This document shows, in pieces, positions 2,264 through 15,596 of a stretch of DNA of 32,000 nt. Location: contig NZ_CP074694.1 of NCBI RefSeq assembly GCF_018398935.1, positions 4,440,001 through 4,472,000 on the forward strand, read 5' to 3'. This DNA comes from Telmatocola sphagniphila. Its GTDB lineage: Bacteria > Planctomycetota > Planctomycetia > Gemmatales > Gemmataceae. Position 1 is the first letter of the stretch; each line of letters starts with the position of its first letter. The notes beneath the pieces are model-generated. The model worked only from the letters and a program-made list of their open reading frames with translations, ran no database searches and was not told where the DNA came from. The position numbers were made by a program, and so were the translations under genes.

Positions 2264-2431
2264 ACCTCCCTTTTTAACCGATCCCCTGCAAGAACCCAAG
2301 GACAAATCGGATTATTCCATCCTTGACGGTGTTGCTTGTTGGGCAATTTGGAGAATGGCGGTTGATCTTTTGCCTATTTTTCGTCAATCATAATGCTTCC
2401 CAGTGATTTGATTACTTCTTCGAGGTTCTCC

Positions 2432-5400
2432 ATGCGGAAAGGTCTGTTCGCATTTTTGTGCAGCCTTGTATTTACAATCCCCATCCAGGCTCAAAGTGAA
2501 ACACTACTTCTGCGGTTCCCCGCCATTCACAACGATACGGTTGTTTTCAGTTATGCCGGGAATCTCTATACCGTCTCCGCGCAGGGGGGAATTGCCCGCA
2601 AATTGACCAGCCACGAAGGTTATGAGATTTTCCCGCGTTTCTCGCCGGACGGAAAGACGATTGCGTTCACCGGCCAGTACGATGGCAATACCGAAGTTTA
2701 TTCGATACCAGCCGAAGGAGGCATTCCCAAGCGTCTGACCTTCACGGCGACGCTCAGCCGGGACGATGTGTCCGACCGCATGGGCCCCAACAACGTGGTG
2801 ATGGGCTGGAAAAACGACGGTAAGAGCATCATCTACCGCGGCCGCATGGCCAGCTTCAACGACTTCATCGGTCAACTTTACACGGTCAGCACCGAGGGTG
2901 GCATGTCCGAACCGCTGCCGTTACCGCGCGGCGGCTTCGCTTCTTATTCTCCCAATGACAGCAAGCTGGCCTACAACCGCGTCTTCCGAGAATTCCGAAC
3001 CTGGAAGCGCTACCGCGGCGGCATGGCCGACGATGTCTGGATCTACGATTTCAAAACTAAGACTTCGGAACAGATCACCAATGTCGATGCCCAGGATATT
3101 TTCCCGATGTGGGCCGGCACGAAAATCTATTACCTCTCGGATCGCGATGAAAACAAACGATTCAACCTGTTCTGTTACGACACGGTCGCCAAGACGACCC
3201 GACAGGTCACCCACTTCAAGGATTACGACATCAAATTCCCTTCACTGGGGAACAAGGCCATCGTTTTCGAACTGGGTGGCGCCCTGTACAAGATGGATCT
3301 GGAATCGGAAAAAGCCGAGAAAATCACCATTCGCGTTCTGGATGACCTGAACACCGGTCGCAACGTGCTTAAGAACGTTTCGAAGGAAGTCACTAGTTTC
3401 AGCGTTTCGCCCGATGGCAAGCGGGCGGCGATCGGCGCTCGAGGCGAAATCTTCAGCGTCCCAGCCAATCAGGGCTTCACTCGCAATTTGACGAATTCGC
3501 CCGGCGTTCACGAACGCAATGCCGCCTGGTCCCCTGACGGCAAGTCGATTGCTTTCGTTTCGGATCAGAGCGGCGAAGATGAGATTTACACCATTCCCCA
3601 GGATGGCAGCGATAGCCCCAAGGCACTGACCAGCGGGGCCGACACCTACAAGTACGAGATCGATTACTCGCCCGATTCGAAGAAGATTCTCTGGAGCGAC
3701 AAGAAGCTTCGTCTGCAATTCGTCGACGTCGAGAGCAAAAAAGTGACGCAGGTGGTTCAAGCGAAGGATTTCGAAATTCGCGATTTCACCTGGAGCCCCG
3801 ACAGCAAGTGGATCGCCTATGCGAAACCCGAATCCGAAACGATGAACAAGATTTTTCTCTATTCGGTTGAGAAAAACACCACCACGGAAATTACCGATGG
3901 CTGGCAAGCCGCCTCGAACCCCTGCTTCAGCTCCGATGGCAAATGGCTGTTCTTCGTCTCGAGCCGGGATTTCAACCCCATTTATAGCAGCACGGAATGG
4001 AATCACGCTTATCTGGAAACCTCGCGGATCTATTTCGTGTCGCTGGCCAGCGACACCGAAAATCCCTTCAAGCCCAAATCGGATGAAGTGAACGAAAAAC
4101 CGGCCGCCTCCAAACCCAGCGAACCGCTTAACGTGAAAGTCGATCTGGACGGTATCAAAGATCGCGTGCTGAGCCTGCCGGTACCGGTCGCCAATTACAA
4201 TAATCTCCATTCCGCGGGCGGACTGCTCTACTACACCCGCGGCGGTTTCCGCATGCCACGATCCTTCCACGCCTACGATCTGGGCGGGAATAAGGAACTC
4301 AGTCTCGGTACCGTGGACAACTACGACATCTCCGCCGACGGCAAGAAGATGATGGTTTCCAAGGGCGGCAACTACGGCATCATCGATCTGCCCCGGGCCT
4401 CTTTCGAATTCAAGCACATGGATCTTTCGGGCCTGGAAGTCAAGCTCGATCGCCATGCCGAATGGAAGCAGATCTACTACGAATGCTGGCGACAGATGCG
4501 GGACTTCTTCTACGATCCCAATCTGCACGGCGTCGATTGGGTCGGCGTCAAAAAGAAGTATGAAGTTTTGCTGCCCTACGTTCAACATCGCTACGATCTG
4601 AGCTACCTCATCGGGGAAATGATCGGCGAATTGAACGCCGGGCATTGCTACGTCGGCGGCGGCGATGTCCCGGCTGTGACGAAAATTCCCATGGGTCTGC
4701 TGGGAGCTCAGTTGAAGCTGCATCCGGAAACCCGCTACGTTCAGGTGGCCAAGATCCTCAAGGGAGCCAACTGGAGCAAATCGCTACGTTCCCCTTTGAC
4801 GGAAATGGGTAACGAAGTCAAGGAAGGGGAATATATCGTCGCGGTGAATAATGTGCCGGTCAACGAAGTGAAGAGCATCTATGAACTGCTGATCAACACC
4901 GTCGACAAACCGGTTCAATTGAAGGTGAACAAAGAGCCGAATATGAAGGGCGCTCGCACGGTGACGGTGACTCCCATCGGCAACGAACACGATCTGTATT
5001 ACTATGACTGGGTGCAGGCCAACATCAAGAAGGTCAGCGAGGCCACCAATGGCAAAGTGGGCTACATTCATGTCCCCGATATGTCGCAGGTCGGCCTGAA
5101 CGAGTTCGTGAAGTACTACTATCCGCAGTTGGGCAAGAAAGCCTTGATCATCGACATGCGCGGCAACGGCGGCGGCAACGTCTCCCCCATGCTGATCGAC
5201 CGGCTGCGCCGGGAAATTGCCATGGTCGGTATCGCTCGCAACGCTCAGCCGACTGTCGATCCGGGAGGGACTTTCTACGGACCGATGTGCTGCCTGCTGA
5301 ATGAATACTCCGCTTCGGATGGCGACCTTTTCCCCTATCGCTTTAAGCACTACAAGCTGGGGCCACTGATCGGCAAGCGAAGCTGGGGCGGCGTGGTCGG

Positions 5401-5653
5401 CATTCGCGGTTCGCTACCTCTGTTGGATGGCGGCACGCTGAGCAAACCAGAGTTCAGCCGATTCGACGTGGCCGGTAAGGAATGGATTATCGAAGGTCAT
5501 GGCGTTGATCCGGATATCGTTCAGGATAACGATCCCGCCAAGGAATACGCCGGGATCGACCAGCAACTGAACAAGGCGATTGAGGTGATGCTGGAAAAAC
5601 TGAAGACGGACGAGAAGAAACTTCCTGCAATCCCCGTCTTCCCCAAACGCTGA
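2432..5653 (+). CDS. Secreted tricorn-protease-like S41 family peptidase (PD40 beta-propellers + PDZ + S41 catalytic domain)
   Basis: The track ORF is 2393..5653. I prefer ATG 2432, which has GAGG 6 nt upstream and a classic signal peptide (MRKGLFAFLCSLVFTIPIQAQS). Repeated PD40 motifs: FSPDGKTIAF, WSPDGKSIAF, YSPDSKKILW, WSPDSKWIAY, FSSDGKWLFF. A PDZ-like segment (VAKILKG...VKEGEYIVAVNNVPV) is followed by S41 motifs (LIIDMRGNGGGNVSP, NEYSASDGDLF, GKRSWGGVVGI). Confidence 0.85.
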   Translation: MRKGLFAFLCSLVFTIPIQAQSETLLLRFPAIHNDTVVFSYAGNLYTVSAQGGIARKLTSHEGYEIFPRFSPDGKTIAFTGQYDGNTEVYSIPAEGGIPKRLTFTATLSRDDVSDRMGPNNVVMGWKNDGKSIIYRGRMASFNDFIGQLYTVSTEGGMSEPLPLPRGGFASYSPNDSKLAYNRVFREFRTWKRYRGGMADDVWIYDFKTKTSEQITNVDAQDIFPMWAGTKIYYLSDRDENKRFNLFCYDTVAKTTRQVTHFKDYDIKFPSLGNKAIVFELGGALYKMDLESEKAEKITIRVLDDLNTGRNVLKNVSKEVTSFSVSPDGKRAAIGARGEIFSVPANQGFTRNLTNSPGVHERNAAWSPDGKSIAFVSDQSGEDEIYTIPQDGSDSPKALTSGADTYKYEIDYSPDSKKILWSDKKLRLQFVDVESKKVTQVVQAKDFEIRDFTWSPDSKWIAYAKPESETMNKIFLYSVEKNTTTEITDGWQAASNPCFSSDGKWLFFVSSRDFNPIYSSTEWNHAYLETSRIYFVSLASDTENPFKPKSDEVNEKPAASKPSEPLNVKVDLDGIKDRVLSLPVPVANYNNLHSAGGLLYYTRGGFRMPRSFHAYDLGGNKELSLGTVDNYDISADGKKMMVSKGGNYGIIDLPRASFEFKHMDLSGLEVKLDRHAEWKQIYYECWRQMRDFFYDPNLHGVDWVGVKKKYEVLLPYVQHRYDLSYLIGEMIGELNAGHCYVGGGDVPAVTKIPMGLLGAQLKLHPETRYVQVAKILKGANWSKSLRSPLTEMGNEVKEGEYIVAVNNVPVNEVKSIYELLINTVDKPVQLKVNKEPNMKGARTVTVTPIGNEHDLYYYDWVQANIKKVSEATNGKVGYIHVPDMSQVGLNEFVKYYYPQLGKKALIIDMRGNGGGNVSPMLIDRLRREIAMVGIARNAQPTVDPGGTFYGPMCCLLNEYSASDGDLFPYRFKHYKLGPLIGKRSWGGVVGIRGSLPLLDGGTLSKPEFSRFDVAGKEWIIEGHGVDPDIVQDNDPAKEYAGIDQQLNKAIEVMLEKLKTDEKKLPAIPVFPKR

Positions 5654-5673
5654 TAGATTGCCCGTATTTCGCT

Positions 5674-5713
5674 GCTCCCGGTTGGAAGTTCGCTTCGATC
5701 CGGGAGCTTTTTT
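5674..5713 (+). terminator. Rho-independent terminator after the protease gene
   Basis: GCTCCCGG (5674..5681) pairs with CCGGGAGC (5700..5707). The loop holds an inner GAAG-TTCG-CTTC mini-hairpin. A run of six T follows directly (5708..5713), 21 nt after the stop codon. Confidence 0.7.
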
Positions 5714-5919
5714 AATTCCTATCTCTCCATCGCACATTAAAAGAATCGGTTGGGATAAACGGCGCAATCTGGCCGCTTCCATTATCCGTATAAACACGAT
5801 CAAATTCTTGCCTCCGTCGTCCAATCTGCAGTTCGACTTGCGTCTTCCCGTCCGGCCGCTATAAGCGAAGAGTCAAAATAGGAATGGATTCCACTTCGGA
5901 AGTGGAAGGAGCCTCCCGA

Positions 5920-7155
5920 ATGGACTTGCGTGGGACATCCTTCGAATGGATTGCGGCTTTGCCGCTCGTTACCCTGTTGGCCGCGGGCTGTTGCACGCCC
6001 GGCACCGGTCAAACCAGCGGTATTAATAAAGAGCGTGAAAAAGACGCCATGGACCGCGCCAGCAAGGCGCTGGATAAACCAGACGACAACTCTGGCAACA
6101 AACTGACCGCGCGTTCGCAGTCACCGCCGGATCAACCGGCTCCGCTGGCCGCGCCCGCTCAACCGGCTCCGCAGGTGATCCAGCCGGTAGTGAATGAAGA
6201 ATTCAAAGCCGATCTGCAGGTTCGCGTGGTGGCTCGCTTCGGCGAGGCCGCCGTGTACGACCGGGAAGTGAAAGAAGTCGTCGCGCAGCGGGCGGGCGAA
6301 TTCTATCAACTGGTCGGCGATGCCCGTCGAACCAAAGAAAAGCAGATTTACTGGGAAGAGCTCAAGAAGTTGATCGATCGGGAACTGATCATCGACGAAT
6401 TAATGGTGAAGCTGAAGAAGGCCAAAAACGATAAGGCGCAGCAGGAAATCAAGAAGGTCGCGAAGGAAGAGGCCGACAAGAAGCTGAAGGAATATCGGAA
6501 GAATCGCAAGATCGATACCGAGGAAGAGTTCGTCAAACTACTCGATCTACAAGGGATCTCGCTGGCCGGCCTGCGCCGTCAGATCGAACGGGATTTCATC
6601 AAGAACATTTATCTGCAGGAATTGATGAAGCCCAAGAAGGAACTCATCAGCATTGCGGATATCCACGATTATTACGACAAGCACTCGGATGAATTCAAAG
6701 TCGAAGAGAGCGTGAAGTGGAACGATATGTTCATCAGCAAATCGATTTTCGACAACAGTAAACCAGGCGAGGCCCGCAAGTACGCGATGGCCATACTGGA
6801 ACATGTGAAGGCTGGCGAGGACTTCGCGAAACTCGGCGAGCAGTACGACAAGGGAGACAGCAAGTTCCGCAAGAGCATGGGAGCCGGGGAGAAGCGCGGA
6901 GAAATTCGGCCGCCGGAGTGCGAGGAAACGCTCTTTGCCCTGAAGCCGAACGAGTCTAAATTGATTGAAACCGACAACGGCTTCCACATTGTGAAAGTGG
7001 TGGAGCGGGTGTATCCCGGCTTGAGGCCCTTCAACGATAAACTCCAAGCGGAAATCCGCCGAAAACTCACCAACCAGATACTGGATAGTGAATATCAGCG
7101 GATTACGGATGCGCTATGGCGGCAGGCCCAGCCCCAGATTCTGATCGATCCCTAG
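5920..7155 (+). CDS. Peptidylprolyl isomerase, parvulin (PpiC) type with SurA-like N-terminal chaperone region; probable exported protein or lipoprotein
   Basis: The track ORF is 5884..7155. ATG 5920 has AAGGAG 8 nt upstream and starts a signal sequence ending in Cys (MDLRGTSFEWIAALPLVTLLAAGCC). The C-terminal parvulin signature is ...LKPNESKLIETDNGFHIVKVVER.... There is a Pro/Ala-rich linker and a long charged helical middle region, as in SurA/PrsA-like proteins. Confidence 0.75.
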   Translation: MDLRGTSFEWIAALPLVTLLAAGCCTPGTGQTSGINKEREKDAMDRASKALDKPDDNSGNKLTARSQSPPDQPAPLAAPAQPAPQVIQPVVNEEFKADLQVRVVARFGEAAVYDREVKEVVAQRAGEFYQLVGDARRTKEKQIYWEELKKLIDRELIIDELMVKLKKAKNDKAQQEIKKVAKEEADKKLKEYRKNRKIDTEEEFVKLLDLQGISLAGLRRQIERDFIKNIYLQELMKPKKELISIADIHDYYDKHSDEFKVEESVKWNDMFISKSIFDNSKPGEARKYAMAILEHVKAGEDFAKLGEQYDKGDSKFRKSMGAGEKRGEIRPPECEETLFALKPNESKLIETDNGFHIVKVVERVYPGLRPFNDKLQAEIRRKLTNQILDSEYQRITDALWRQAQPQILIDP

Positions 7156-7162
7156 ACCGGAA

Positions 7163-7657
7163 TTACAGGCCCGATTTTTTCTTGGCCTCGAGGATGGCCG
7201 CCGGGATCGTCTGAATCTTGGCGTCTTCCTTGAGTCCTGAAGTGGGAATCGCGGGAACGTTCTGCTTCTTCCCGGCATTCGCGCTGGCGTCGGCCTGGCT
7301 GAGAATGTCGCGGAGACTCTTGCGGAAGGAGTCGTACTGGTTCTGGAGGTCGTTCCGCTCGGCCGTACGCACGGCCAATTCGGTTTTCACCAGATTCAAT
7401 TCTTTAACGGTGGCCTGCAGACGATCGACTTCGGCCTGCAATTGGGCGCGCGATTCTTCTTCCATCATCAGCTTTTTGCGAAACTGGTCCCGTTGAGCGC
7501 TGGAGGTTTTGAAATCTTCTTCCAGACGGATGGTTTTGGCTTCCAGAGATTGCAGTCGTTCGGTCATCGCAACGCTGGCGGTGGTGCTGCGCGAGCAACC
7601 CCAGGCTCCGATGATCAGGGTGAACGTCAGGGCTAAATACAAATTCCAACGCTTCAT
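7163..7657 (-). CDS. Hypothetical exported coiled-coil protein
   Basis: 164-aa ORF with an N-terminal signal-like segment (MKRWNLYLALTFTLIIGAWGCS), then heptad-rich, Q/E/L/R-rich sequence. A GAGGG SD lies upstream. It is convergent with the PPIase gene with a 7-nt gap. I recognise no family. Confidence 0.55.
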   Translation of the reverse strand: MKRWNLYLALTFTLIIGAWGCSRSTTASVAMTERLQSLEAKTIRLEEDFKTSSAQRDQFRKKLMMEEESRAQLQAEVDRLQATVKELNLVKTELAVRTAERNDLQNQYDSFRKSLRDILSQADASANAGKKQNVPAIPTSGLKEDAKIQTIPAAILEAKKKSGL

Positions 7658-8003
7658 GGAGGGACCCTCGAATTTAGGTTAACCGACGGACAAAAATGTG
7701 TACATCGGGGAGCTGGGAAATTCTGGCAAAAGATTCCGTTCGGGAAGCTCCGTTACATCCTTCGCATTTTCTTTCGTCCATCGAAAGTTCTTTACTTCAT
7801 CCAAATTTGCTATTTTTTGTGATCGGCAATGTGAAGCGCCGCCAAGAAGGAAACTGACGATTTCGCGGATTATGATTCAAGAAGTGTAATGCGTAAGACC
7901 GTCAGGATCGTTGCTCTCGGCGCGGCCAGGAAGTGCTCGTGAACCCGAAGCGGGGCGGGAGGATCTATGAGTTTGGGTGGAGTTGTCCGAGGAAGTTATC
8001 GGG

Positions 8004-8031
8004 TTGACAAATCGAGGCATGAACGTAGGAT
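8004..8031 (+). promoter_or_regulatory. Sigma70-like promoter candidate for tRNA-Pro
   Basis: TTGACA (8004..8009), a 16-nt spacer, then TAGGAT (8026..8031), ending 14 nt before the tRNA 5' end. This is a pattern match only. Confidence 0.3.
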
Positions 8032-8045
8032 ATGCCTTCCAAATT

Positions 8046-8119
8046 CGGGCTGTAGCTCAGCTTGGTAGAGCGCTTGGTTCGGGACCAAGAGGTCGCAGGT
8101 TCAAATCCTGTCAGCCCGA
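8046..8119 (+). tRNA. tRNA-Pro (anticodon CGG)
   Basis: Hand-folded cloverleaf of 74 nt. Acceptor stem CGGGCTG/CAGCCCG, then U8 A9. D arm GCTC-AGCTTGGTA-GAGC. Anticodon arm CTTGG-TTCGGGA-CCAAG, giving anticodon CGG with G37 as expected for Pro. Variable loop AGGTC. T arm GCAGG-TTCAAAT-CCTGT. Discriminator A. CCA is not encoded. Confidence 0.9.
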
Positions 8120-8133
8120 CTGTTTTTTAAAAG

Positions 8134-8170
8134 AAGCCCTTCGGCGAGTACGTCGAAGGGCTTTCTCATT
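8134..8170 (+). terminator. Hairpin terminator downstream of tRNA-Pro
   Basis: AAGCCCTTCG (8134..8143) pairs with CGAAGGGCTT (8154..8163). The stem can extend by G-U, C-G and G-C around an AGTA tetraloop. The following tail TTTCTCATT is T-rich but weak. Confidence 0.55.
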
Positions 8171-8412
8171 GCTAAATAATGGGCGGGTATCACGGGTTGA
8201 TTTCGTTCAAAAGACTGGCTTCATTGCCATGATTTTTCATTGGATTTGACGTAACCTCTTTGTTAGCAAGTCGTTTTGAGGTTCAAATTCCGTTGTCCCT
8301 CTCATTACGACAAAATTGCAGTTCAGTGCGAGTACCTCCATTTCGGGTCAGTCGAGTGAGATGCGAATTCTCGCGTTCCAACTGTCCTTTATTGGGAGAT
8401 TGATCGTTTGAC

Positions 8413-11253
8413 TCAGCCGCCGTTCGACTCGGAATTTCCAAAAGCTTTCTGCTGGTGGTGCGACAGAGCGCGAAGAATCGTATCGAGCACGCTGTTGAGT
8501 TGCTTGCCGACGTCTTCGGCCAGGAAGCGCAATACGAAATAGCCATGCTCCTGCAAGTGCATATCCTTGCGGCGGTCGCGGCGATAAGCTTCCGGGCTGT
8601 CGAAGTGCTGGGCGCCGTCCAACTCAATGGCGAGCCGGGCTTCGGCGTATAGCAGATCCACTTCCATTCTGCCGTTGCCGTCGAAGGGAATCGGCAGTTC
8701 AGCGTTCAGTCTAAACCGCCCGGTTGTTGCGGGAAGGGTCTGTAAACGTTGATAGAGAAAAGCCTCGCTTGCGCTGCGGGCACGATCGATTTCATTAGCT
8801 TCGAAAGCGACCGACGTTGCCGCTTGCGTGAACAGGTTCGCCAAGGGAGCATCGACGCCGTCGCGGATCAGCCGCTGGACGCTGGCTGCGTAGTCCGCTT
8901 TCCATTGTGGATCGACGGGCAAAGGAACGCTCGCCGGCCAACCCGGCACCGCGCTGGCAGGGAGCAAAATCGTATAACCCACAGCCTCGTAGCCGCGGCA
9001 ACGCCGGTCGAACATACGAGCCAGCATGGGTACGTTCAGGTCGACATAGTCGTACACGCGCACTTCGCGTTTGCTATGATACAGCCTGTGCAGCCGGCCT
9101 ACATATTGCGCGATTGTGCCGCGCCACGAAATCGGCAGTGTTAGAAATAGGGTATCCAGGCGCGGATCGTCGAAGCCTTCGCCGATATAGCGTCCGGTTG
9201 CGAGCAAGACACGCGGCTCGCATTCGGGAATTGCTGCTAATTTGCCGGCACCTTCGCCGATTTCTTTTCTACTCATGCCTCCGCGCATCACAATCAGATG
9301 CCGAACGGTGCTGGATAATTGCTCAGCCAGCAGGTCGAGATGCTCGTTGCGTTCGGTCAATACCAAAGGCGACCGGCCCTCGGCAACGGCCTGAAGCACG
9401 TCAGCGCAGATGAACCGGTTGCGAACCGGATCTACAACCAATTCTGAATGCAACTCTTGAAATTGGACGCGCCGATCTTCAGCGACAATTCCCTGAGAAC
9501 AAAAGCCCGTCGGCCGGACATGGACGGTATGCACGAAGGGACGCTCAGCTGCCTGCTTCTTGGCATCGACTCGATATCGAATGGGTCCGCACTGCATGAA
9601 AATCATCGGATGATGGCCATCTTTTCGAGCAACTGTGGCGGATAGGCCGGTGACGAATCTGGATTTTGCCAGGCGGACGACTTGCTCGAAACTGGCCGCG
9701 GGCAGATGGTGGCATTCGTCCACGACGAGATGCCCGTAATCCCCGAGCAAATCGAGTCCGGCTCCTTGTCGCGATAAGCTTTGAATTAACGCCACATCCA
9801 GCAAGCCGGTCGGTTTCTTGCGCCCGCCGCCGATTTGACCAATTTCTTTGGGCGGCAGATTCAGAAACGTTGCCAAACGCTGCACCCATTGCTCCATCAA
9901 CTGCCGGAGATGCACGAGAACCAAAGTGTTAACGCCTCGCTTCGCAATGAGCCAAGATGCGACCACGGTCTTTCCAAAAGCCGTTGTGGCGGCGAGCACG
10001 CCCGTGTCGTGTGCCAGCATTGCGTAGGCTGCGATCTCCTGTTCGTCATGCAAATGGCCGTGAAACGCAGCTTCCAGCGGCTTGCCCTGCTGGCGTTCAT
10101 CCCGCAAGCCGATGCCTATTCGCAGATCTGCAAGGAGAGCTTGAACTTCGTCCATGCAACCGCGAGGAAGGCCGATATGCTGCGGATGGTCCTCGGCACC
10201 AACAATAATGCGCGGCTTGCCAAATGTCGGCAGATGCATCGCTTGGGCCTTGTAGAATTCGGGATTCTGAAAAGCTGCCATCCGAACGAGACGGTTTTGC
10301 AAGTTGGGAGTCAGTTGGTCCTTGGCGATGGTGAGCTGATTGCAAAGGATCAATTCGACTCGGCTCGGCAGCGGCCCGTCGCAAGGGAGTTCTTTTCGAC
10401 GACTCACCGAAGGCACTGTCCAGTAATGAGCGTCGTCCTCTTCTACGGGAGCGAATCGCACGCCGATGATCCGCCCCGCTTTTTCCGCACGCGAGACGAT
10501 GGACTCGGCACCGACTCGGTCGATTCGCCGAACCGAAGACAGCAACTCCCATTGGTCGACGTGCGGTTTGAAATCGTCGTCCAGGAAAACGCTGTTGCCC
10601 CGTTCGCGCGATACTTTCTGCAAAGGAAGCGCGATCGAGTTGCCGAAACCGCCTTGAGGGAGCGTATCTTGGTTGGGGAAGCAATGATCGTAGGAATCCA
10701 ACCCAATTTCCGGCTGCCGATCCATGGTTTCGGTCAGCAAGTACGCCCCGAGTTTGCGCGCCAGAACGGCAGGAATTGCTTCGGCGAAGAACAGCCAAAG
10801 ATGACCGCTGTTTCCGCTTCGCGATTGCTCCAGCGCCGCCGGCAAGCCGAGGCGGCGGCACGTGTCCATCACCGCCTGTGCATCCTTCCGCCAATTCTGT
10901 TTGTCCAAGTCGATGGCCAGAAAGAAGCACCTCTCGTCGCGCAACAAAGGGTAGACACTCATGACGAAGTCGCGCCCCGCGTCATCTTGTCCGGACAGGT
11001 GCCAGCGGACGGCATCGTCAGTCACGGGTAAGAATCGTTGGTGCGGGCAGGCGGCACATTTGATGCGAGGCTTTTCGCATACTCCCTGTATCCACTCGTT
11101 GCCGCACGCGAGCGCATACCCCGACTTGCCTGTGCGGAGGCTTTCAAACCGGCGGGCATAGACGTCGTCGCGTCCGCGAAAGAGCGTTCGAAACAGGGCA
11201 ATCTTGGCCTTGGGAGAAGAAAGACGATTGACGGGTTGGAGCTGGCGGTTCAT
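8413..11253 (-). CDS. Fusion protein: archaeo-eukaryotic primase (AEP/PrimPol-like) N-domain + SF2 DExH (ResIII-type) helicase + C-terminal DUF559/Vsr-like PD-(D/E)xK endonuclease
   Basis: 946 aa. AEP motifs: FFLAIDLD (DxD, nt 10903..10923), SGNSGHLWLFF (sGxxH, nt 10786..10818) and GLDSYDHCFPNQD, plus a Cys cluster CGNEWIQGVCEKPRIKCAACPH. Helicase motifs: Walker A TAFGKT (nt 9967..9984), DECH (nt 9709..9720, checked on the DNA), SAT, and QYVGRLHR (motif VI). C terminus: EVDLLYAEARLAIELDGAQHFDSPEAYRRDRRKDMHLQEHGYFVLRF, the classic DUF559 pattern (nt about 8464..8796). Confidence 0.85.
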   Translation of the reverse strand: MNRQLQPVNRLSSPKAKIALFRTLFRGRDDVYARRFESLRTGKSGYALACGNEWIQGVCEKPRIKCAACPHQRFLPVTDDAVRWHLSGQDDAGRDFVMSVYPLLRDERCFFLAIDLDKQNWRKDAQAVMDTCRRLGLPAALEQSRSGNSGHLWLFFAEAIPAVLARKLGAYLLTETMDRQPEIGLDSYDHCFPNQDTLPQGGFGNSIALPLQKVSRERGNSVFLDDDFKPHVDQWELLSSVRRIDRVGAESIVSRAEKAGRIIGVRFAPVEEDDAHYWTVPSVSRRKELPCDGPLPSRVELILCNQLTIAKDQLTPNLQNRLVRMAAFQNPEFYKAQAMHLPTFGKPRIIVGAEDHPQHIGLPRGCMDEVQALLADLRIGIGLRDERQQGKPLEAAFHGHLHDEQEIAAYAMLAHDTGVLAATTAFGKTVVASWLIAKRGVNTLVLVHLRQLMEQWVQRLATFLNLPPKEIGQIGGGRKKPTGLLDVALIQSLSRQGAGLDLLGDYGHLVVDECHHLPAASFEQVVRLAKSRFVTGLSATVARKDGHHPMIFMQCGPIRYRVDAKKQAAERPFVHTVHVRPTGFCSQGIVAEDRRVQFQELHSELVVDPVRNRFICADVLQAVAEGRSPLVLTERNEHLDLLAEQLSSTVRHLIVMRGGMSRKEIGEGAGKLAAIPECEPRVLLATGRYIGEGFDDPRLDTLFLTLPISWRGTIAQYVGRLHRLYHSKREVRVYDYVDLNVPMLARMFDRRCRGYEAVGYTILLPASAVPGWPASVPLPVDPQWKADYAASVQRLIRDGVDAPLANLFTQAATSVAFEANEIDRARSASEAFLYQRLQTLPATTGRFRLNAELPIPFDGNGRMEVDLLYAEARLAIELDGAQHFDSPEAYRRDRRKDMHLQEHGYFVLRFLAEDVGKQLNSVLDTILRALSHHQQKAFGNSESNGG

Positions 11254-11332
11254 AGGTAGTCACCATGCATTGCCCTTCCCTGAAGTTCGACTTGCTTTTG
11301 GAAAAACGAATGTAACTGTATTCAGCCGAGAA

Positions 11333-11758
11333 TCAGCGTCCCTTCGCACCGCAACAGAACTTATATTTCTTGCCGCTATTGCAGGCACATGGTGCATAGC
11401 GGTCGATATTAGAGATTCTTTGGGCTGGCGCCCCTCTTTTGGGAAGCTCCTGCTCCGAAGGACCACTTAGTGAAGGTCCAGCGGAAGCCCGTCGATGCAA
11501 GAACGGGAACATTTCGTGGTGTCTTTGGATCATGGGCATAATGACGGATTTCTTAAATGCATCGAATTCCTCGTCGTTCATGGCGAAACTCTTCTGTACG
11601 TCGCTTAACGTCTTCTCCCAGCTATCTTCAGGAAAAATTGCGAGATTATAGCACAGCTGGGCTATGGCGAAGGCTTTCTCAATCTGTTCCGGAGAACCAT
11701 CCGTCTGATCGAGAAGAGGCTTTGCGTAAGCCACAATTCCTTCCGCAATCGCGCCCAT
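11333..11758 (-). CDS. SEC-C motif (zinc-binding) domain protein
   Basis: 141 aa ending in an intact SEC-C motif, YAPCACNSGKKYKFCCG (nt 11348..11398). A GGAGAG SD lies about 8 nt upstream of the ATG. The helical N-terminal domain is of unknown function. Its stop is 79 nt upstream of the AEP-helicase start, on the same strand. Confidence 0.7.
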   Translation of the reverse strand: MGAIAEGIVAYAKPLLDQTDGSPEQIEKAFAIAQLCYNLAIFPEDSWEKTLSDVQKSFAMNDEEFDAFKKSVIMPMIQRHHEMFPFLHRRASAGPSLSGPSEQELPKRGAPAQRISNIDRYAPCACNSGKKYKFCCGAKGR

Positions 11759-11870
11759 ATCCGAGTCTCTCCAGTATTGGTCAATTCGAGCCGATGCGAG
11801 TTCGAAAACGCGTCGGCATTTAGGACTATTCCTGTACTCAGTTTATTGAGGTGTGCAACCGCGCGGCGAA

Positions 11871-13256
11871 TCACTTTTGCTTTAAGTTGAGTTTACGGGT
11901 GGACCGCTTACGTTTTGCGTCTGTCGGCGGTATGGCCGGTGCGCGAAGGCCCTTGCCGAACTTCGGGATCTCGATGTGCAATGCCGCATAGGTGTAGAGA
12001 TCGACTTCGGAACTCTCATTTCCAAAATATCCCCAAGCGCAATAATCGCAGGTATGAAGGTGTCCAGCCGCTGGAAGTTCCGGATCGCCGTTATCTTGGG
12101 ATTGCCGTGTTGAACTGTCCGAGGAGGGAGGAGGCTCAATCCAAGTGACGCCAAAACCGCCTTTCGTTTCGGAACTTCCTCGAATCGGCAAAGCGCTTTC
12201 GAGGTCGGACGCAGCCACCTGCCAGCCCAGTTTCGATTTCTCTTTGCTCGTCGGAAAGCGATCGAGTTGCCAGGTTTCATCGACGCAGCTTTCGAACATG
12301 TATGGGTTGAAGCTGACTTTCAATCCGGCCTGGAGCGATGTCGCCGCCACCAAATAATCGCGTCCTTTGAGCGCGGTTGAAGGCTGCTGATCGATGGAGC
12401 TCTGTTTGCTCTGAAAGCGTGCGTCCTGGTGGTAGAGATGGCAACAGGGATAACCGAGAATTCCGCCATTAGGAAGGAAACTCTCGTCGGCCAGCAAGGC
12501 CTGCCACGCTTCTTGAATGCGCGGCGCGAGATCCTCGCCAGCCACATCGTGTACCGGCACACCGCTTTCTCCGCGTCTTAGCAAATAGGTCAATGTGACG
12601 CGTGCACCGCTCCAAATTCTTTCGATCTGATGATCCACATCGCCGAAGAACGCGGCCCAATGAAGTTGATTCGGCTTCTTTTGCTTTTCGATGGCAGATC
12701 CCCAGTCGTACTTCTGCACGACTCCCCGGTGCCTCAAAACCAATTTGCCGTTCGAAAAATTCGACGGCAAACACACAACCAGCGTGCCAAACATATCGTT
12801 GCCGCGCGGTGTATCTTTGTGAGGCGCGAAGTGTCCGCCAGAGCTATAAACATTTACGGAGTAAAGTTCCGCTGAAATGAGATTAGGATCGTGTGGAACG
12901 AGTTCTCGTTGGATCTTCTTCAAAATGCCGGCGGATTCGGGGTCGAAGCCTTCGATGGAAAATCCGCCCTTCTCGGCCTTGAGTTGAAGCGCATCGCGCA
13001 CCATGCGATCGTAGCGGGTCTTTTTGCCGTCGCCAAAAGGCGCCGGCTCGCAGTGGTCGAGCAACGGCTTTAATTCATTCTTCTGCTCGAATGTACTTTT
13101 CGCGCGAGCGACTTCAAACCGGGTCTTATCCCGAAACATAAAAGCGATGGGATTTTTCGGAATGCAAGTTCCTTTGCATGAAAATGGAGCAGTCACTCCA
13201 TGGATTGCCAACCGCAAATTCTCCAGTGTCGATGTTGCTTTCTTGCTCATGATCAT
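11871..13256 (-). CDS. 2OG-Fe(II) dioxygenase, prolyl-4-hydroxylase-like superfamily, with an extended C-terminal domain and a basic tail
   Basis: 461 aa. The double-stranded beta-helix core is LYSVNVYSSGGHFAPHKDTPRGNDMFGTLVVCLPSNFSNGKLVLRH...AAFFGDVDHQIERIWSGARVTLTYLL. That gives HxD (H146/D148, nt 12813..12821, checked on the DNA), a distal His (H209) and a 2OG-binding Arg (R219). The C-terminal half carries LKGRDYL and a Cys/His patch HLHTCDYCAWGY. The tail DAKRKRSTRKLNLKQK is strongly basic. Confidence 0.75.
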   Translation of the reverse strand: MIMSKKATSTLENLRLAIHGVTAPFSCKGTCIPKNPIAFMFRDKTRFEVARAKSTFEQKNELKPLLDHCEPAPFGDGKKTRYDRMVRDALQLKAEKGGFSIEGFDPESAGILKKIQRELVPHDPNLISAELYSVNVYSSGGHFAPHKDTPRGNDMFGTLVVCLPSNFSNGKLVLRHRGVVQKYDWGSAIEKQKKPNQLHWAAFFGDVDHQIERIWSGARVTLTYLLRRGESGVPVHDVAGEDLAPRIQEAWQALLADESFLPNGGILGYPCCHLYHQDARFQSKQSSIDQQPSTALKGRDYLVAATSLQAGLKVSFNPYMFESCVDETWQLDRFPTSKEKSKLGWQVAASDLESALPIRGSSETKGGFGVTWIEPPPSSDSSTRQSQDNGDPELPAAGHLHTCDYCAWGYFGNESSEVDLYTYAALHIEIPKFGKGLRAPAIPPTDAKRKRSTRKLNLKQK

Positions 13257-13362
13257 AGATTTCCTGGTAGGAGCTCACAGTCGATTGATCCTTGGAAATA
13301 CAACATTTCTTGAATTTCTTGCCGCTGCCGTACAGACAGGGGTCATTGTGTCCCGCCTTCAT
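13126..13362 (-). CDS. SEC-C-motif mini-ORF overlapping the dioxygenase start; possible frameshifted N-terminal extension or remnant
   Basis: The track ORF 13126..13383 starts at GTG. ATG 13362 gives MKAGHNDPCLYGSGKKFKKCC, a typical SEC-C N-terminus but with the second Cys replaced by Tyr. After about 40 aa the sequence looks like out-of-frame read-through of the dioxygenase 5' region. It overlaps 11871..13256 by 131 nt in a frame offset by one base. Confidence 0.4.
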   Translation of the reverse strand: MKAGHNDPCLYGSGKKFKKCCISKDQSTVSSYQEIYDHEQESNIDTGEFAVGNPWSDCSIFMQRNLHSEKSHRFYVSG

Positions 13363-13440
13363 TGGCATTTCCCCCCATTGCACTTGTGAGATTCTACGCT
13401 TTCCCGAAAACTGCGTACAGAAAAACGTAACCTCTTACCC

Positions 13441-13478
13441 GAACGCCGCCGTTCCATTTCACTGGAACGGCGGCGTTC
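13441..13478. repeat. Perfect 16-bp inverted repeat (hairpin or operator-like palindrome)
   Basis: GAACGCCGCCGTTCCA (13441..13456), loop TTTCAC, TGGAACGGCGGCGTTC (13463..13478). It lies about 60-80 nt upstream of the SEC-C/dioxygenase start and about 145 nt outside the IS66 end. No adjacent T-run on either strand. Confidence 0.8.
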
Positions 13479-13622
13479 GCGTTGAACAGAACGAGATTCT
13501 CTCCGCAGTCGTAAGATCAGTTTGCCGTGGGCTTTGTGTCATGCAGCCGCCGCTGTAGCCCACTTTCCCAGCCCCGCACGCCAGCGATAAAAAGTTCAAT
13601 AGTGACTGTGAATGAAATCAAG

Positions 13623-15147
13623 GTAATCTTTCACTCTCCTGAACTGAGCTTCACGGGTAGAGCAGGTAGTTTCCCTGTAAGCGTGTAGGTGCGGAGGGCC
13701 GATTCGGTCTCCTTTAAAGGATCCGGGTCCCGCAGCTTCAGGGTTCGATAAATGCTCATCAGAATGCTTCGCGTCCGAGCCCCCTGCTGGCTGTAACTGC
13801 CGAAACTGACTTTCCGCATCATCACGCCCGGTCGGATTTCTCGCTCCCCCTTATTGTTGCTCTTGGGCACTCCCTCTATTTCCAGAAACGTTAATAGATC
13901 GTCGCCGTAATCGAACAAACGCTTGGCCAATCTCCGGGCGTGGCGGTTCGTCCACGGTCGCACCGCCAAATCGGTGATCCGCGTCTTAAGCCGCAGCAAT
14001 CGGCTGTCGTAGCTCTCCTGTTGCAACTCTTCGATACCCGCCTCCAAACGCACGGCATCGGCGTAAATCCGCCACAGTTTCTTGCAGAATTCTGGCCAAT
14101 CCTCGCCGCTTTCAGAGCCTTCATCGACCGCCGTCAGATCCCGCAACAAGTGAGGCCAACACTTCTGACGCTTCTGGGTCACGATGTCGTACACTTTCCA
14201 GAAGTCGCTGACCAGAACGCCCTGGAAGGCTTCCGTGAAGAAGACCTTCAAGGCCTCGTGACCCCGCTTGGGGTGAATCCGATAATAGGTCGCATCGTCC
14301 CGCGCAAAACACCACAGCCAGGACGTCACTCCTTCGGTTCGCCAGCCGGTCTCATCAGCGTGCAGGACGCCGGCCAAAAGACATTCGCGGTGAATCTGCT
14401 CGTACCAGGGTTCGAGTACCTCGGCCAGACGGTGCCAGATTTCGGTCAAGCCGCCCACGCTGAGTTTCATCTGAAGGTGGCCGTTGAAGACCTCCAGGAT
14501 CTGACTCGTCGTGGTACCCAGTCCGTAGTGCAGCCAGGCCGACAGGACCGTAGTTCGATGGCCCAGCTGACAGCCTGGCAGAGCGTCGGGAACAACCGGT
14601 TCGACCTGCTTTTTGCACTTGGGACACCAGTCGCGGTGAATCGTGTGTTCGGTTGTCTGAGCGTGCAAATCGTCGGGAATATCTTCGATGATCCTTAGGC
14701 GTTTGCGGTCGGTGCGTTGCAGAGCTCCCTGGCAGCAGGGACAGACCTCCAGTTGGTGGGTCTGGCGTTTATCGATGCGGGTGGGAATTGGGCGATAATG
14801 ACCGTCGTGTCCAGGCTTGGGGCCGGCTTTTCCCTTCTTTTTCTTGGGATTCGCATTCGGCTTTAAGTAGGGAGCGATGGATCCCGAGGGAGTGTTTGGC
14901 CCCAGAGGTATCGTGCCTGCAGCGACCGCGACGCTCAGCTGAAGTAACAGAAACTGCAATTCCAGGGGATCTCGATGAACGAACTCCCGAGCTTGTTCCG
15001 AAGTCAGCTTTCCGCTTCGGAACGACGCCAGGAAAGTGGGATCGAGAACGGGAGTTTCCGTTGATGTTGGAATCGCAGAAGCCATGACGGAGTGATAGCA
15101 AATTGCAACCCCTCGCGCAAGACCAGTTCAGGGAAGTGAAAGGTTAC
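13623..15147 (-). mobile_element. IS66-family insertion sequence, single-ORF (ISBst12-like) type, apparently intact
   Basis: Terminal inverted repeats both begin with GTAA. One end reads GTAATCTTTCACTCTCCTGAACTG (13623 onward). The reverse complement of the other end reads GTAACCTTTCACTTCCCTGAACTG (up to 15147). They match at 21 of 24 positions. The repeats enclose a single full-length transposase ORF; total length is 1525 bp. No clean flanking target-site duplication is visible. Confidence 0.75.
13631..15085 (-). CDS. IS66 family transposase
   Basis: 484 aa with a basic N-terminal region (NPKKKKGKAGPKPGHDGH) and a zinc-finger-like segment (HQLEVCPCCQGAL...WCPKCKK). DDE-domain context motifs include LHADETGW and ...VLVSDFWKVYD.... 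The layout is typical of IS66 TnpC-type transposases. Confidence 0.85.
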   Translation of the reverse strand: MASAIPTSTETPVLDPTFLASFRSGKLTSEQAREFVHRDPLELQFLLLQLSVAVAAGTIPLGPNTPSGSIAPYLKPNANPKKKKGKAGPKPGHDGHYRPIPTRIDKRQTHQLEVCPCCQGALQRTDRKRLRIIEDIPDDLHAQTTEHTIHRDWCPKCKKQVEPVVPDALPGCQLGHRTTVLSAWLHYGLGTTTSQILEVFNGHLQMKLSVGGLTEIWHRLAEVLEPWYEQIHRECLLAGVLHADETGWRTEGVTSWLWCFARDDATYYRIHPKRGHEALKVFFTEAFQGVLVSDFWKVYDIVTQKRQKCWPHLLRDLTAVDEGSESGEDWPEFCKKLWRIYADAVRLEAGIEELQQESYDSRLLRLKTRITDLAVRPWTNRHARRLAKRLFDYGDDLLTFLEIEGVPKSNNKGEREIRPGVMMRKVSFGSYSQQGARTRSILMSIYRTLKLRDPDPLKETESALRTYTLTGKLPALPVKLSSGE

Positions 15148-15248
15148 CCATTCAGAATCAAGAGACGAAACTGTCCTAATGTTGGAATTCATTTCGAAAG
15201 AATATTTACTGGGGGATTTGATCCACCCCATTTTGCGCGGACACGGAG

Positions 15249-15470
15249 TTAAGCTTTTTTGCCTGCCCTTTCATACTCGTCCGGGGAAACGTATCCCAGA
15301 CTCGAAAGCCTTCTGATCCGATTGTAGAACACTTCGATGTATTCGAAGATGCTTCTTTTAGCTTCGTCCTGGGTTTCGGATTTCACTCGATGGCACGACT
15401 CCTTCTTCAGGCTGGCAAAGAAGCTCTCCATCGGAGCATAATTCCAGCAGTCGGCTCTACGACTCGCGCT
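15249..15470 (-). pseudogene. IS3-family transposase (OrfB, integrase-core) C-terminal remnant
   Basis: The in-frame translation SASRRADCWNYAPMESFFASLKKE...IEVFYNRIRRLSSLGYVSPDEYE matches the conserved IS3 OrfB tail (CWDNAxxESFF...YNxxRxHSxLGYxSPxxYE). An upstream in-frame stop and the absence of the rest of the rve domain show it is a truncated fragment. Confidence 0.7.
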
Positions 15471-15596
15471 TCAGCGAACTGCATGCTATAGCCAACCGAT
15501 CCTCGTCGTGTTATACTGACAGTCCTACCTCGAACTCTGCCTGCTCCCACCGCAGAACTCGTGCAAAGAATTCTTATCGCGATTTGGGTGCTCTCC

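What the first reader, a model, noticed from the sequence alone, without database searches (positions are those of the whole stretch)
8413..13383. Co-directional cluster: SEC-C mini-ORF / 2OG-Fe(II) dioxygenase, SEC-C protein, AEP-helicase-nuclease; candidate multi-gene conflict system
Four ORFs lie on the minus strand with short gaps: 112 nt between the dioxygenase stop and the SEC-C gene start, and 79 nt between the SEC-C gene stop and the AEP-helicase start. No intervening hairpin terminator was noticed, which is consistent with one operon. The pairing is unusual: a P4H-like dioxygenase (a protein- or nucleic-acid-modifying enzyme), two SEC-C zinc-knuckle modules (adaptor/binding modules) and a primase-helicase-nuclease effector. 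I do not recognise this combination as any named defence system. One hypothesis is that the dioxygenase modifies self or target macromolecules, or acts as a sensor/regulator, while the SEC-C protein tethers the complex.
Basis: inference. Interest (0 to 1): 0.75.

Follow-up and report, generated by a model that had tools for sequence, protein, structure and literature searches.

The report
Solo primase-helicase-nuclease gene with chance neighbours
The four neighbouring genes are mostly real, but they are not a conserved multi-gene defence system: the large primase-helicase-nuclease belongs to a catalogued family that nearly always occurs alone, and its two neighbours are independent conserved genes placed beside it in a small variable region next to a tRNA gene.

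Summary
Three solid minus-strand genes lie 79 and 112 nt apart with no terminator-like structure between them: a 946-aa AEP primase / SF2 helicase / DUF559 nuclease, a 141-aa SEC-C protein and a 461-aa P4H-like 2OG-Fe(II) oxygenase. The 85-aa SEC-C "mini-ORF" is doubtful. It overlaps the oxygenase gene by 131 nt, lacks the second zinc-binding Cys, and is not conserved upstream of homologues.

The window is Telmatocola sphagniphila. The cluster sits between tRNA-Pro and an IS66 element plus an IS3 remnant.

The large protein matches Pfam AEP-TOTE (E 1e-89), so it is a catalogued predicted conflict effector. No TPR, OB or TBP partner is present.

None of 43 oxygenase loci carries the helicase. 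None of about 95 helicase loci carries this oxygenase or the SEC-C protein family. Each gene is widespread, conserved and found in varied contexts.

Two weak links remain. A related 795-aa 2OG oxygenase lies next to AEP-TOTE helicases in four other loci from three phyla. The oxygenase and the SEC-C protein are adjacent once more, in the opposite order.

Best reading: an autonomous effector with fortuitous neighbours. A facultative link between oxygenase and helicase has about 0.2 probability.

The parts
8046..8120 (+). tRNA-Pro (CGG). It forms the left edge of the variable region and is followed by a hairpin at about 8131-8168.
   Evidence: ARAGORN; sequence
8413..11253 (-). 946-aa single-polypeptide AEP primase-polymerase / SF2 (XPB-like) helicase / DUF559 (Vsr-like) endonuclease. 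100% identical to a Telmatocola sphagniphila protein.
   Evidence: Pfam AEP-TOTE 1.3e-89, ResIII, DEAD, DUF559; PADLOC CRISPR-associated PrimPol 2.8e-80; P0121 100% identity
10513..11205 (-). AEP (PrimPol) domain, residues 17-247. Motifs D115-x-D117, S144..G147..H151 and D189, plus a four-Cys cluster (C50, C59, C66, C69).
   Evidence: Pfam stretch; invariant or nearly invariant columns in 27 homologues
8974..10053 (-). SF2 helicase core, about residues 401-760. Motifs GKT 427-429, DECH 512-515, SAT 538-540, Q716..R720..R723.
   Evidence: Pfam ResIII/DEAD; NCBIfam XPB 4e-16; invariants
8464..8802 (-). DUF559 / MTES_1575 restriction-endonuclease-fold domain, residues 818-930. D866, E877, D879 and H883 are invariant.
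   Evidence: Pfam; invariants
11333..11758 (-). 141-aa protein: an N-terminal four-helix bundle, a disordered linker and a C-terminal SEC-C zinc motif (nt 11348-11395).
   Evidence: Pfam SEC-C 19.6 bits; 881 homologues, nearly all 141 aa long; alignment; AF2 pLDDT 78; no PDB fold match
11871..13256 (-). 461-aa P4H-like 2OG-Fe(II) oxygenase. The DSBH core is residues 133-224 (nt 12585-12860). The C-terminal half is conserved, Cys/His-rich and poorly modelled. The true start is probably 13250 or 13256.
   Evidence: Pfam 2OG-FeII_Oxy_3 4e-4; 797 homologues at 70-82% identity; invariants H146, D148, H209, R219; Foldseek PHD2/P4H E 3e-5
13126..13383 (-). 85-aa SEC-C 'mini-ORF'. Probably not a functional gene but a degenerate SEC-C motif remnant (nt 13300-13338) that reads into the oxygenase gene in another frame.
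   Evidence: ORF list; motif C-L-Y; no conservation of the motif upstream of 42 homologues
13441..13478 (.). Perfect hairpin with a 16-17 bp stem, upstream of the cluster and downstream of the IS66 transposase. A likely transcription boundary.
   Evidence: Sequence; fold -58.4 kcal/mol, z -7.8
13622..15148 (-). IS66-family insertion sequence (transposase at 13631-15085) with 25-nt inverted repeats matching at 22 of 25 positions. No target-site duplication found.
   Evidence: Pfam DDE_Tnp_IS66 2e-38; inverted-repeat alignment; flanks
15249..15431 (-). IS3-family integrase-core fragment. It forms the right edge of the variable region, before a DUF1501 gene at 15561.
   Evidence: Pfam rve_2 7e-13, DUF1501 1.5e-63

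Best explanation
The 7.4 kb between tRNA-Pro (8046-8120) and the IS66/IS3 debris (13622-15431) is a small variable region of the Telmatocola sphagniphila chromosome. It holds three independently distributed accessory genes, not one dedicated system.

The only component with a conflict-system pedigree is the 946-aa protein. It is a stand-alone member of the Pfam AEP-TOTE family, with a zinc-binding AEP primase-polymerase, an XPB-like SF2 helicase and a Vsr/DUF559-type endonuclease in one chain. All catalytic motifs are intact, and the canonical TOTE partners (TPR, OB, TBP) are absent.

Inferred mechanism, none of it shown:
- The protein acts autonomously on DNA.
- The helicase loads and translocates on invading or aberrant DNA.
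- The nuclease nicks or cuts that DNA.
- The AEP domain primes or extends on the exposed strand.

The 461-aa P4H-like oxygenase and the 141-aa SEC-C protein are members of two separate, widespread families of unknown function. Here they happen to lie upstream. They may be co-transcribed with the helicase gene simply because nothing terminates transcription between them.
For: Shown:
- Domain content and intact motifs of the large protein.
- At least 8,000 homologues; the 120 best listed are 69-82% identical, most from Planctomycetota where named. Some are named by NCBI as TOTE conflict system AEP proteins.
- Across 80 metagenomic loci, 10 close-relative or viral-contig loci and 2 plasmid loci, the helicase has no conserved neighbour. 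The recurrent ones are SNF2/SWIM helicases (8 loci), AbiEii/AbiEi, PIN, HEPN, HigBA, integrases, relaxases and IS66.
- No family matched more than 5 of the 149 flanking ORFs. A TPR protein turned up once. No S1/CSD or TBP family reached two members.
- Close relatives at 77-81% identity lie in different contexts.
- The helicase is in none of 43 oxygenase loci, and those loci share no conserved neighbour.
- The 461-aa oxygenase and the SEC-C N-domain are in none of about 95 helicase loci.
- SEC-C homologues sit beside a glycosyl hydrolase, a radical-SAM gene or AdoHcy hydrolase.
- Codon composition separates the genes. GC3 is 0.645 for the helicase (host range 0.62-0.71), but 0.535 for the SEC-C gene and 0.584 for the oxygenase.
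- The region is bounded by a tRNA gene, an IS66 element without a target duplication and an IS3 fragment.
Against: - The tight co-directional spacing with no terminator is what an operon looks like.
- A related 2OG oxygenase family (795 aa) lies immediately beside AEP-TOTE helicases in L130 (45-nt gap), L148 (156 nt), a Microvirga plasmid (1.4 kb, divergent) and a Streptomyces plasmid (about 130 nt, divergent). Oxygenase-helicase adjacency is therefore not unique to this genome.
- The oxygenase and the SEC-C protein are adjacent again in L123.
- SEC-C is the commonest Pfam family among the oxygenase's neighbours.
- No experiment shows that any AEP-TOTE protein defends against anything.
- Short forms of the helicase on plasmids and in a TniABQ transposon suggest a role in mobile-element replication instead.
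Confidence: 0.6

Rival explanations
1. A facultative two-part module. A P4H-like 2OG oxygenase (the 461-aa type here, the 795-aa type elsewhere) works with the AEP-TOTE helicase-nuclease. It might hydroxylate the effector, a host factor or a target as a sensor or regulator, taking the place of the TPR/OB/TBP sensing parts of canonical TOTE systems.
For: - The 795-aa oxygenase shares a homologous N-terminal module of up to about 270 aa with the window protein (27-33% identity, E 1e-15 to 1e-27).
- It lies directly next to AEP-TOTE helicases in four loci from Planctomycetota, Alphaproteobacteria and Actinomycetota.
- On replicons of 0.7-1.4 Mb the two genes are within 1.5 kb of each other.
- Three of about 12 helicases that are at least 75% identical to the window's have an upstream co-directional oxygenase (the window, L130, L148).
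- PADLOC lists both a PrimPol model and a 2OG model among CRISPR-associated genes, and both match here.
Against: - Only 3 of 93 helicase-first loci have any such oxygenase.
- Only 2 of 11 loci found with the 795-aa oxygenase as the query have the helicase.
- Orientation and spacing are not conserved.
- The Streptomyces helicase copy is frameshifted twice.
- The 461-aa family itself is never linked to the helicase elsewhere.
- Co-residence of two defence-island or plasmid accessory genes would give the same pattern.
Confidence: 0.2
2. The oxygenase and the SEC-C-motif proteins form their own pair, unrelated to the helicase. One possibility is a protein hydroxylase acting with or on zinc-tail proteins that dock on the ribosome or a chaperone, since known P4H-like enzymes modify EF-Tu and ribosomal proteins.
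For: - A SEC-C141 homologue lies directly upstream of an oxygenase homologue in L123, with a 70-nt gap.
- Other SEC-C proteins lie directly downstream in L035 and L036.
- SEC-C is the top Pfam family among 139 flanking ORFs.
- The two window genes share an atypically low GC3.
- The fold matches the EF-Tu hydroxylase P4H and OGFOD1.
Against: - Only three independent lineages out of about 43 show it.
- The SEC-C proteins involved belong to different families and share only the roughly 20-aa motif.
- Motif density near the oxygenase is not clearly above the local background.
- Five of six SEC-C141 loci lack the oxygenase.
Confidence: 0.1
3. The AEP-helicase-nuclease is not an immune effector. It is a replication, establishment or repair protein of mobile elements, or of the host, that has become fixed in planctomycete chromosomes.
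For: - Short forms without DUF559, 52-58% identical among the 25 listed of 279 plasmid records, lie among DUF736, ArdC-like and ParB genes on plasmids. In one case the short form is the fourth gene of a TniA-TniB-TniQ operon.
- Purifying selection is very strong, with 76% mean column identity.
- Some copies sit beside ribosomal or lpx genes.
- GC3 is host-like.
Against: - Full-length copies are not in phages; only the helicase domain matches.
- Neighbours are enriched for toxin-antitoxin and Abi genes.
- A fused nuclease is unusual for a replicative primase-helicase.
- Pfam and NCBI file the domain under a conflict system.
Confidence: 0.1

Closest known systems
TOTE conflict systems (TPR, OB, TBP, Effector; Aravind, Iyer and Burroughs 2022, as summarised in PMC12458937)
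   Same: The AEP domain matches the Pfam model built for TOTE effectors (PF22548, E 1.3e-89). NCBI names homologues 'TOTE conflict system archaeo-eukaryotic primase domain-containing protein'.
   Different: No TPR-S1/CSD or TBP protein is encoded beside it in the window, and none recurs in 86 homologous loci. This is an orphan effector, not a TOTE operon. I could not read the original review, so the definition rests on a secondary source.
CRISPR-associated primase-polymerases (CAPP; PADLOC PDLC01465, NCBIfam PrimPol_Msp)
   Same: Strong match to a PADLOC PrimPol model flagged as CRISPR-associated (2.8e-80). Weak match to NCBIfam type A1 CAPP (2e-17, cut-off 200).
   Different: No cas gene among the annotated ORFs and no CRISPR-like repeat array in the 32-kb window. 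The protein is fused to a helicase and a nuclease rather than to Cas1/Cas2 partners.
Prolyl-4-hydroxylase-like 2OG-Fe(II) oxygenases (PHD2/EGLN1, Pseudomonas P4H acting on EF-Tu, OGFOD1, PiuC)
   Same: HxD...H triad and a 2OG-binding Arg are invariant. The DSBH fold matches PHD2 and bacterial P4H.
   Different: Only 13-18% identity. The Pfam score is below the cut-off. There is an extra conserved C-terminal half of about 230 aa of unknown fold. The substrate is unknown. No PDB relative is detectable by sequence.
SEC-C motif proteins (SecA C-terminal tail, YecA, YchJ)
   Same: C-terminal CxC...CC zinc motif with the KYKFCC signature.
   Different: The N-terminal four-helix domain has no detectable relative in Pfam or the PDB. 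It is not a YecA/UPF0149 or YchJ orthologue by NCBIfam cut-offs.

Membership tests
Pfam AEP-TOTE (PF22548) domain family | Sequence match above the gathering score (27 bits) over the whole model | tested here: met
   300.2 bits; residues 17-247 cover model positions 2-225 of 230
Pfam AEP-TOTE (PF22548) domain family | AEP catalytic motifs I (DxD), II (sGxGxH) and III (hD) intact | tested here: met
   D115/D117, S144-G147-H151 and D189 are invariant or nearly invariant in 27 homologues
TOTE conflict system (operon level) | TPR protein fused or linked to an S1/CSD-type OB fold, encoded beside the effector | tested here: not met
   No TPR or CSD hit in the window ORFs flanking the gene. Among 149 ORFs flanking 86 homologues, one TPR protein and no recurrent S1/CSD family.
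TOTE conflict system (operon level) | TBP-domain protein encoded beside the effector | tested here: not met
   No TBP family among the window neighbours or among families matched by two or more flanking ORFs
CRISPR-associated PrimPol (CAPP) | Adjacency to cas genes or a CRISPR array | tested here: not met
   No cas domains in the annotated ORFs. No interspaced repeat family in the window. NCBIfam PrimPol_Msp scores 62.9 bits against a cut-off of 200.
P4H-like 2OG-Fe(II) oxygenase (PF13640) | HxD...H iron triad and a 2OG-binding basic residue on a DSBH fold | tested here: met
   H146, D148, H209 and R219 invariant. Strands 127-228 form the jelly roll. Foldseek PHD2 E 2.9e-5.
P4H-like 2OG-Fe(II) oxygenase (PF13640) | Pfam gathering score | tested here: inconclusive
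   21.7 bits against 27 for the window protein. The related 795-aa protein passes at 33.2 bits.
SEC-C motif (PF02810) | Four zinc ligands C-x-C ... C-[CH] | tested here: met
   141-aa protein: PCAC...FCC. The four motif Cys are invariant in 34 homologues. Score 19.6 against 20.4.
SEC-C motif (PF02810), mini-ORF | Four zinc ligands C-x-C ... C-[CH] | tested here: not met
   The motif reads PCLYGSGKKFKKCC, with the second Cys replaced by Tyr. Score 18.5 against 20.4.
Dedicated multi-gene defence operon (generic criterion) | Conserved co-occurrence of the component families across unrelated genomes | tested here: not met
   0 of 43, 0 of about 95 and 0 of 6 for the three pairings that involve the helicase or the full set. 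One extra oxygenase/SEC-C141 adjacency.
Dedicated multi-gene defence operon (generic criterion) | Co-transcription and a joint phenotype | not testable with these tools
   Only the absence of terminator-like structures between the genes can be shown
IS66 family insertion sequence | DDE_Tnp_IS66 transposase flanked by terminal inverted repeats | tested here: met
   Pfam 2.1e-38. Inverted repeats at 13622-13646 and 15124-15148 match at 22 of 25 positions. The usual 8-bp duplication (the length is from my own knowledge of IS66) was not found.

The most novel reading that the evidence does not exclude
A previously undescribed, facultative partnership between AEP-TOTE primase-helicase(-nuclease) effectors and a large family of P4H-like 2OG-Fe(II) oxygenases (the 461-aa and 795-aa types). 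The oxygenase would supply sensing or regulation by hydroxylation, in place of the TPR/OB/TBP parts of TOTE systems. The window would be one variant of it, with a SEC-C adaptor inserted.
Probability: 0.18. Interest if true: 0.6.

Novelty: new member of a known kind. Interest (0 to 1): 0.3.

Why it matters
As it stands, the finding matters little. It is one more copy of a catalogued but experimentally untested effector family, sitting in a variable chromosomal spot.

It is useful as a caution. Tight co-directional spacing without terminators is not evidence of a system when each gene is individually mobile.

The by-product is of some value. AEP-TOTE helicase-nucleases are abundant (at least 8,000 clusters), strongly conserved, mostly solo, and stripped of the partners that define TOTE. 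A single-gene construct is therefore an easy experimental entry point. Their occasional pairing with a large 2OG oxygenase across three phyla is a concrete, cheap hypothesis to test.

Tried and rejected
1. Mini-ORF as an N-terminal SEC-C extension of the oxygenase. Rejected. A stop codon lies 18 nt upstream of the ATG in the oxygenase frame, and longer homologues have no SEC-C at the N-terminus.

2. IS66 insertion truncating a SEC-C141-like gene to leave the mini-ORF. Rejected. The inverted repeats put the IS end at 13622, about 240 nt from the ORF, and the ORF's own frame is closed by a stop at 13435-13437.

3. Island boundaries from a tRNA-derived direct repeat. Only a 13-of-15 match at 8279-8293, which is chance level.

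4. attC-like or other structured elements in the two intergenic gaps. None.

5. CRISPR array in the window. None.

6. Shared contig lengths as a shortcut to co-occurrence. The 53,420-bp contig was a true hit (L123). The 2,715-bp match was a coincidence, and L051 (6,563 bp) has no SEC-C141 hit. The 5,219-bp match was not checked.

7. L145 'helicase associated domain' protein after TniA/TniB next to a 795-aa oxygenase. It is not an AEP-helicase homologue.

8. Reading the primary TOTE description (Annu Rev Biomed Data Sci 2022). It is not held. Literature searches for AEP-TOTE, PF22548, or DUF559 with primase and helicase found nothing specific.

9. Sequence search of the oxygenase profile against the PDB. 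No hit.

10. Fold search of the SEC-C protein. No significant hit.

Full report
**What is there**

The minus strand carries four ORFs exactly as described:
- a 946-aa ORF at 8413-11253;
- a 141-aa ORF at 11333-11758;
- a 461-aa ORF at 11871-13256;
- an 85-aa ORF at 13126-13383.

The gaps are 79 and 112 nt. No terminator-like site falls in either gap, and neither gap folds better than shuffled sequence (z 0.33 and 0.38).

The 946-aa and 141-aa proteins are 100% identical to Telmatocola sphagniphila proteins on a 6.59-Mb contig, so the window is from that planctomycete.

The cluster is bounded on one side by tRNA-Pro(CGG) at 8046-8120. On the other side lie:
- a perfect hairpin at 13441-13478 (z -7.8);
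- an IS66-family element at 13622-15148, with 25-nt inverted repeats and no target duplication;
- an IS3 integrase fragment at 15249-15431.

Beyond these lie ordinary planctomycete genes: a PpiC rotamase, a tricorn-like protease, and DUF1501 and PSCyt genes.

**The genes one by one**

*The 946-aa protein.* It matches Pfam AEP-TOTE at 1.3e-89, then ResIII/DEAD, then DUF559/MTES_1575. It also matches a PADLOC PrimPol model flagged as CRISPR-associated at 2.8e-80, and XPB weakly. In 27 homologues the following are invariant or nearly so:
- the AEP motifs D115xD117, S144..G147..H151 and D189;
- a four-Cys cluster;
- helicase motifs I, II, III and VI;
- the nuclease residues D866, E877, D879 and H883.

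All three enzymatic modules therefore look active.

*The 461-aa protein.* It has only a sub-threshold 2OG-FeII_Oxy_3 hit. However, H146, D148, H209 and R219 are invariant. The N-terminal 320 residues of a moderate AF2 model (pLDDT 59.6) match PHD2, Pseudomonas P4H, OGFOD1 and PiuC. "P4H-like" is fair. The C-terminal half is conserved but unmodelled. The superfamily is large: 5,560 clusters at 50% identity, with lengths among the 150 best-listed full-length hits of about 400-1,059 aa.

*The 141-aa protein.* It is a conserved family with 881 hits, nearly all 141 aa long. It has a confident four-helix N-domain with no PDB fold match, a variable linker and a complete SEC-C motif.

*The 85-aa ORF.* It is probably not a gene:
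- It overlaps the oxygenase start by 131 nt in another frame.
- Its motif lacks the second Cys.
- In all but one homologous locus (L030), only the part that is the alternative frame of the conserved oxygenase 5' end is "conserved".

**Is it a system?**

*Oxygenase first.* A scan of one genome per species gave 42 loci in four planctomycete orders and several other phyla.
- None carries the helicase.
- One carries a SEC-C141 homologue, 7.4 kb away.
- No neighbour is conserved beyond lineage-level synteny.

*Helicase first.* I examined 80 metagenomic loci, eight close relatives, two viral-collection contigs and plasmid loci.
- None has the 461-aa oxygenase or the SEC-C N-domain.
- The recurrent neighbours are SNF2/SWIM helicases, AbiEii/AbiEi, PIN, HEPN, HigBA, integrases, relaxases and IS66. 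That is a mobile or defence-island flavour without a fixed partner.
- Close relatives at 77-81% identity lie in different contexts.

*SEC-C first.* Homologues lie beside a glycosyl hydrolase, a radical-SAM gene or other unrelated genes.

Codon composition also separates the genes. GC3 is 0.645 for the helicase, inside the host range of 0.62-0.71. It is 0.535 for the SEC-C gene and 0.584 for the oxygenase.

The exact combination is therefore unique to this genome in a sample of about 145 loci.

**What survives of the idea**

Two weak links appeared.

*First link: a related oxygenase next to the helicase.* In L130, whose helicase is 81% identical to the window's, a 795-aa protein with an N-terminal 2OG-FeII_Oxy_3 domain lies 45 nt upstream in the same direction. 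Its N-terminal module, up to about 270 aa, is homologous to the window oxygenase (27-33% identity, E 1e-15 to 1e-27). The same family is next to AEP-TOTE helicases in three more places:
- L148, as a C-terminal fragment 156 nt upstream;
- a 1.4-Mb Microvirga plasmid, divergent and 1.4 kb apart;
- a Streptomyces chartreusis plasmid, divergent and about 130 nt apart, with the helicase frameshifted twice.

Against this:
- Nine other loci with the 795-aa oxygenase lack the helicase.
- Only 3 of 93 helicase-first loci have any such oxygenase.

The adjacency is non-random but facultative. It is equally explained by two accessory genes that frequent the same islands. The 795-aa oxygenase also sits among toxin-antitoxin genes, next to a DUF2397/TIGR02678/TIGR02680 cluster, and next to SNF2+SWIM genes.

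*Second link: the oxygenase and SEC-C proteins.* In L123 a SEC-C141 homologue lies 70 nt upstream of an oxygenase homologue that is 80% identical. This is the opposite order from the window. SEC-C is the commonest Pfam family among 139 ORFs flanking the oxygenase. However, this rests on two lineages besides the window. The SEC-C proteins involved are unrelated outside the roughly 20-aa motif. Motif density near the oxygenase is not clearly above background.

**Comparison with what is known**

TOTE stands for TPR, OB, TBP, Effector. I know this only from a secondary source, a preprint that cites Aravind et al. 2022; the review itself is not held.
- The window protein is a member of the AEP-TOTE domain family.
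- The locus is not a TOTE system. No TPR-OB or TBP partner is present here, and none recurs in 86 homologous loci.
- It is not a CRISPR-associated PrimPol locus either. There are no cas genes and no array.

I found no paper in the held library that mentions AEP-TOTE or tests such a protein.

Short forms lacking the nuclease occur on alphaproteobacterial plasmids among DUF736, ArdC-like and ParB genes. In one case the short form is the last gene of a TniA-TniB-TniQ operon. This keeps a replication or establishment role for mobile elements alive as a rival. Phages carry only helicase-domain relatives.

**Verdict**

The most likely reading (0.6) is an autonomous, catalogued primase-helicase-nuclease effector lying in a tRNA- and IS-bounded variable region beside two unrelated conserved accessory genes. 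Co-transcription is possible but not evidence of joint function.

The rivals are:
- a facultative oxygenase-helicase module, about 0.2;
- an oxygenase/SEC-C pair unrelated to the helicase, about 0.1;
- a non-defence role for the helicase, about 0.1.

Interest is modest.

Noticed in passing
window 13395-13478: A perfect hairpin with a 16-17 bp stem (13441-13478), followed by a second long stem. The 117-nt fold is -58.4 kcal/mol, z = -7.8. It lies between the IS66 element and the cluster and may be a terminator or a repeat element.
   Followed up: partly
window 13622-15148 and 15249-15431: A compact single-ORF IS66-family element with 25-nt inverted repeats (22 of 25 match) but no 8-bp target duplication at either candidate boundary. 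An IS3 rve_2 fragment lies 100 nt further on. Together these suggest IS-mediated rearrangement at this edge.
   Followed up: partly
L130:5568-7952, L148:2-382, L137:6950-9289, L141:7001-9409: A 2OG-Fe(II) oxygenase family of about 760-800 aa lies directly beside AEP-TOTE helicases in four loci from three phyla. Nine other loci of the same family lack the helicase.
   Followed up: partly
L135 (Sphingobium yanoikuyae pTB1) 694-8286: A short AEP-helicase without DUF559 is the fourth, start-overlapping gene after a putative TniA, TniB and TniQ. That makes it a cargo or accessory gene of a Tn5053/Tn7-like transposon.
   Followed up: no
L044, L045, L086, L095, L099, L101, L104, L116; L139:2828-6442: An SNF2 helicase with a SWIM zinc finger is the commonest neighbour of AEP-TOTE helicases (8 of 80 loci). 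A helicase-plus-SWIM pair annotated as DEAD/DEAH box (family not checked against the SNF2 cluster) also lies upstream of the 795-aa oxygenase on a Bradyrhizobium plasmid.
   Followed up: no
L052, L053, L073, L103, L108, L117, L149 (e.g. L149:3097-4230): A protein of about 377 aa with no Pfam match, starting MSE[FY]QY, recurs next to AEP-TOTE helicases, upstream or downstream and on either strand. In L149 it overlaps the helicase stop by 4 nt. It may be a genuine partner in a subset of loci.
   Followed up: no
L001-L042: The 461-aa oxygenase is 70-80% identical across MAGs assigned to Gemmatales, Isosphaerales, Pirellulales and Planctomycetales. It also occurs in MAGs binned as Acidobacteria, Nitrospinota, Latescibacterota and Myxococcota, always in different contexts. 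This implies horizontal spread or binning errors.
   Followed up: partly
window 11333-13256: The SEC-C gene (GC3 0.535) and the oxygenase gene (GC3 0.584) have lower third-position GC than every other gene measured in the window (0.62-0.71).
   Followed up: yes
window 8279-8293: A 15-mer resembling the T-arm of the adjacent tRNA-Pro (13 of 15 match) lies 182 nt downstream of it. It could be an old attachment-site remnant or chance.
   Followed up: no
L134:5980-6729; L141:10841-16325: A DUF2398 gene overlaps the stop of an AEP-TOTE helicase by 4 nt in L134. A DUF2397/TIGR02678/TIGR02680 cluster lies next to the 795-aa oxygenase in Streptomyces.
   Followed up: no
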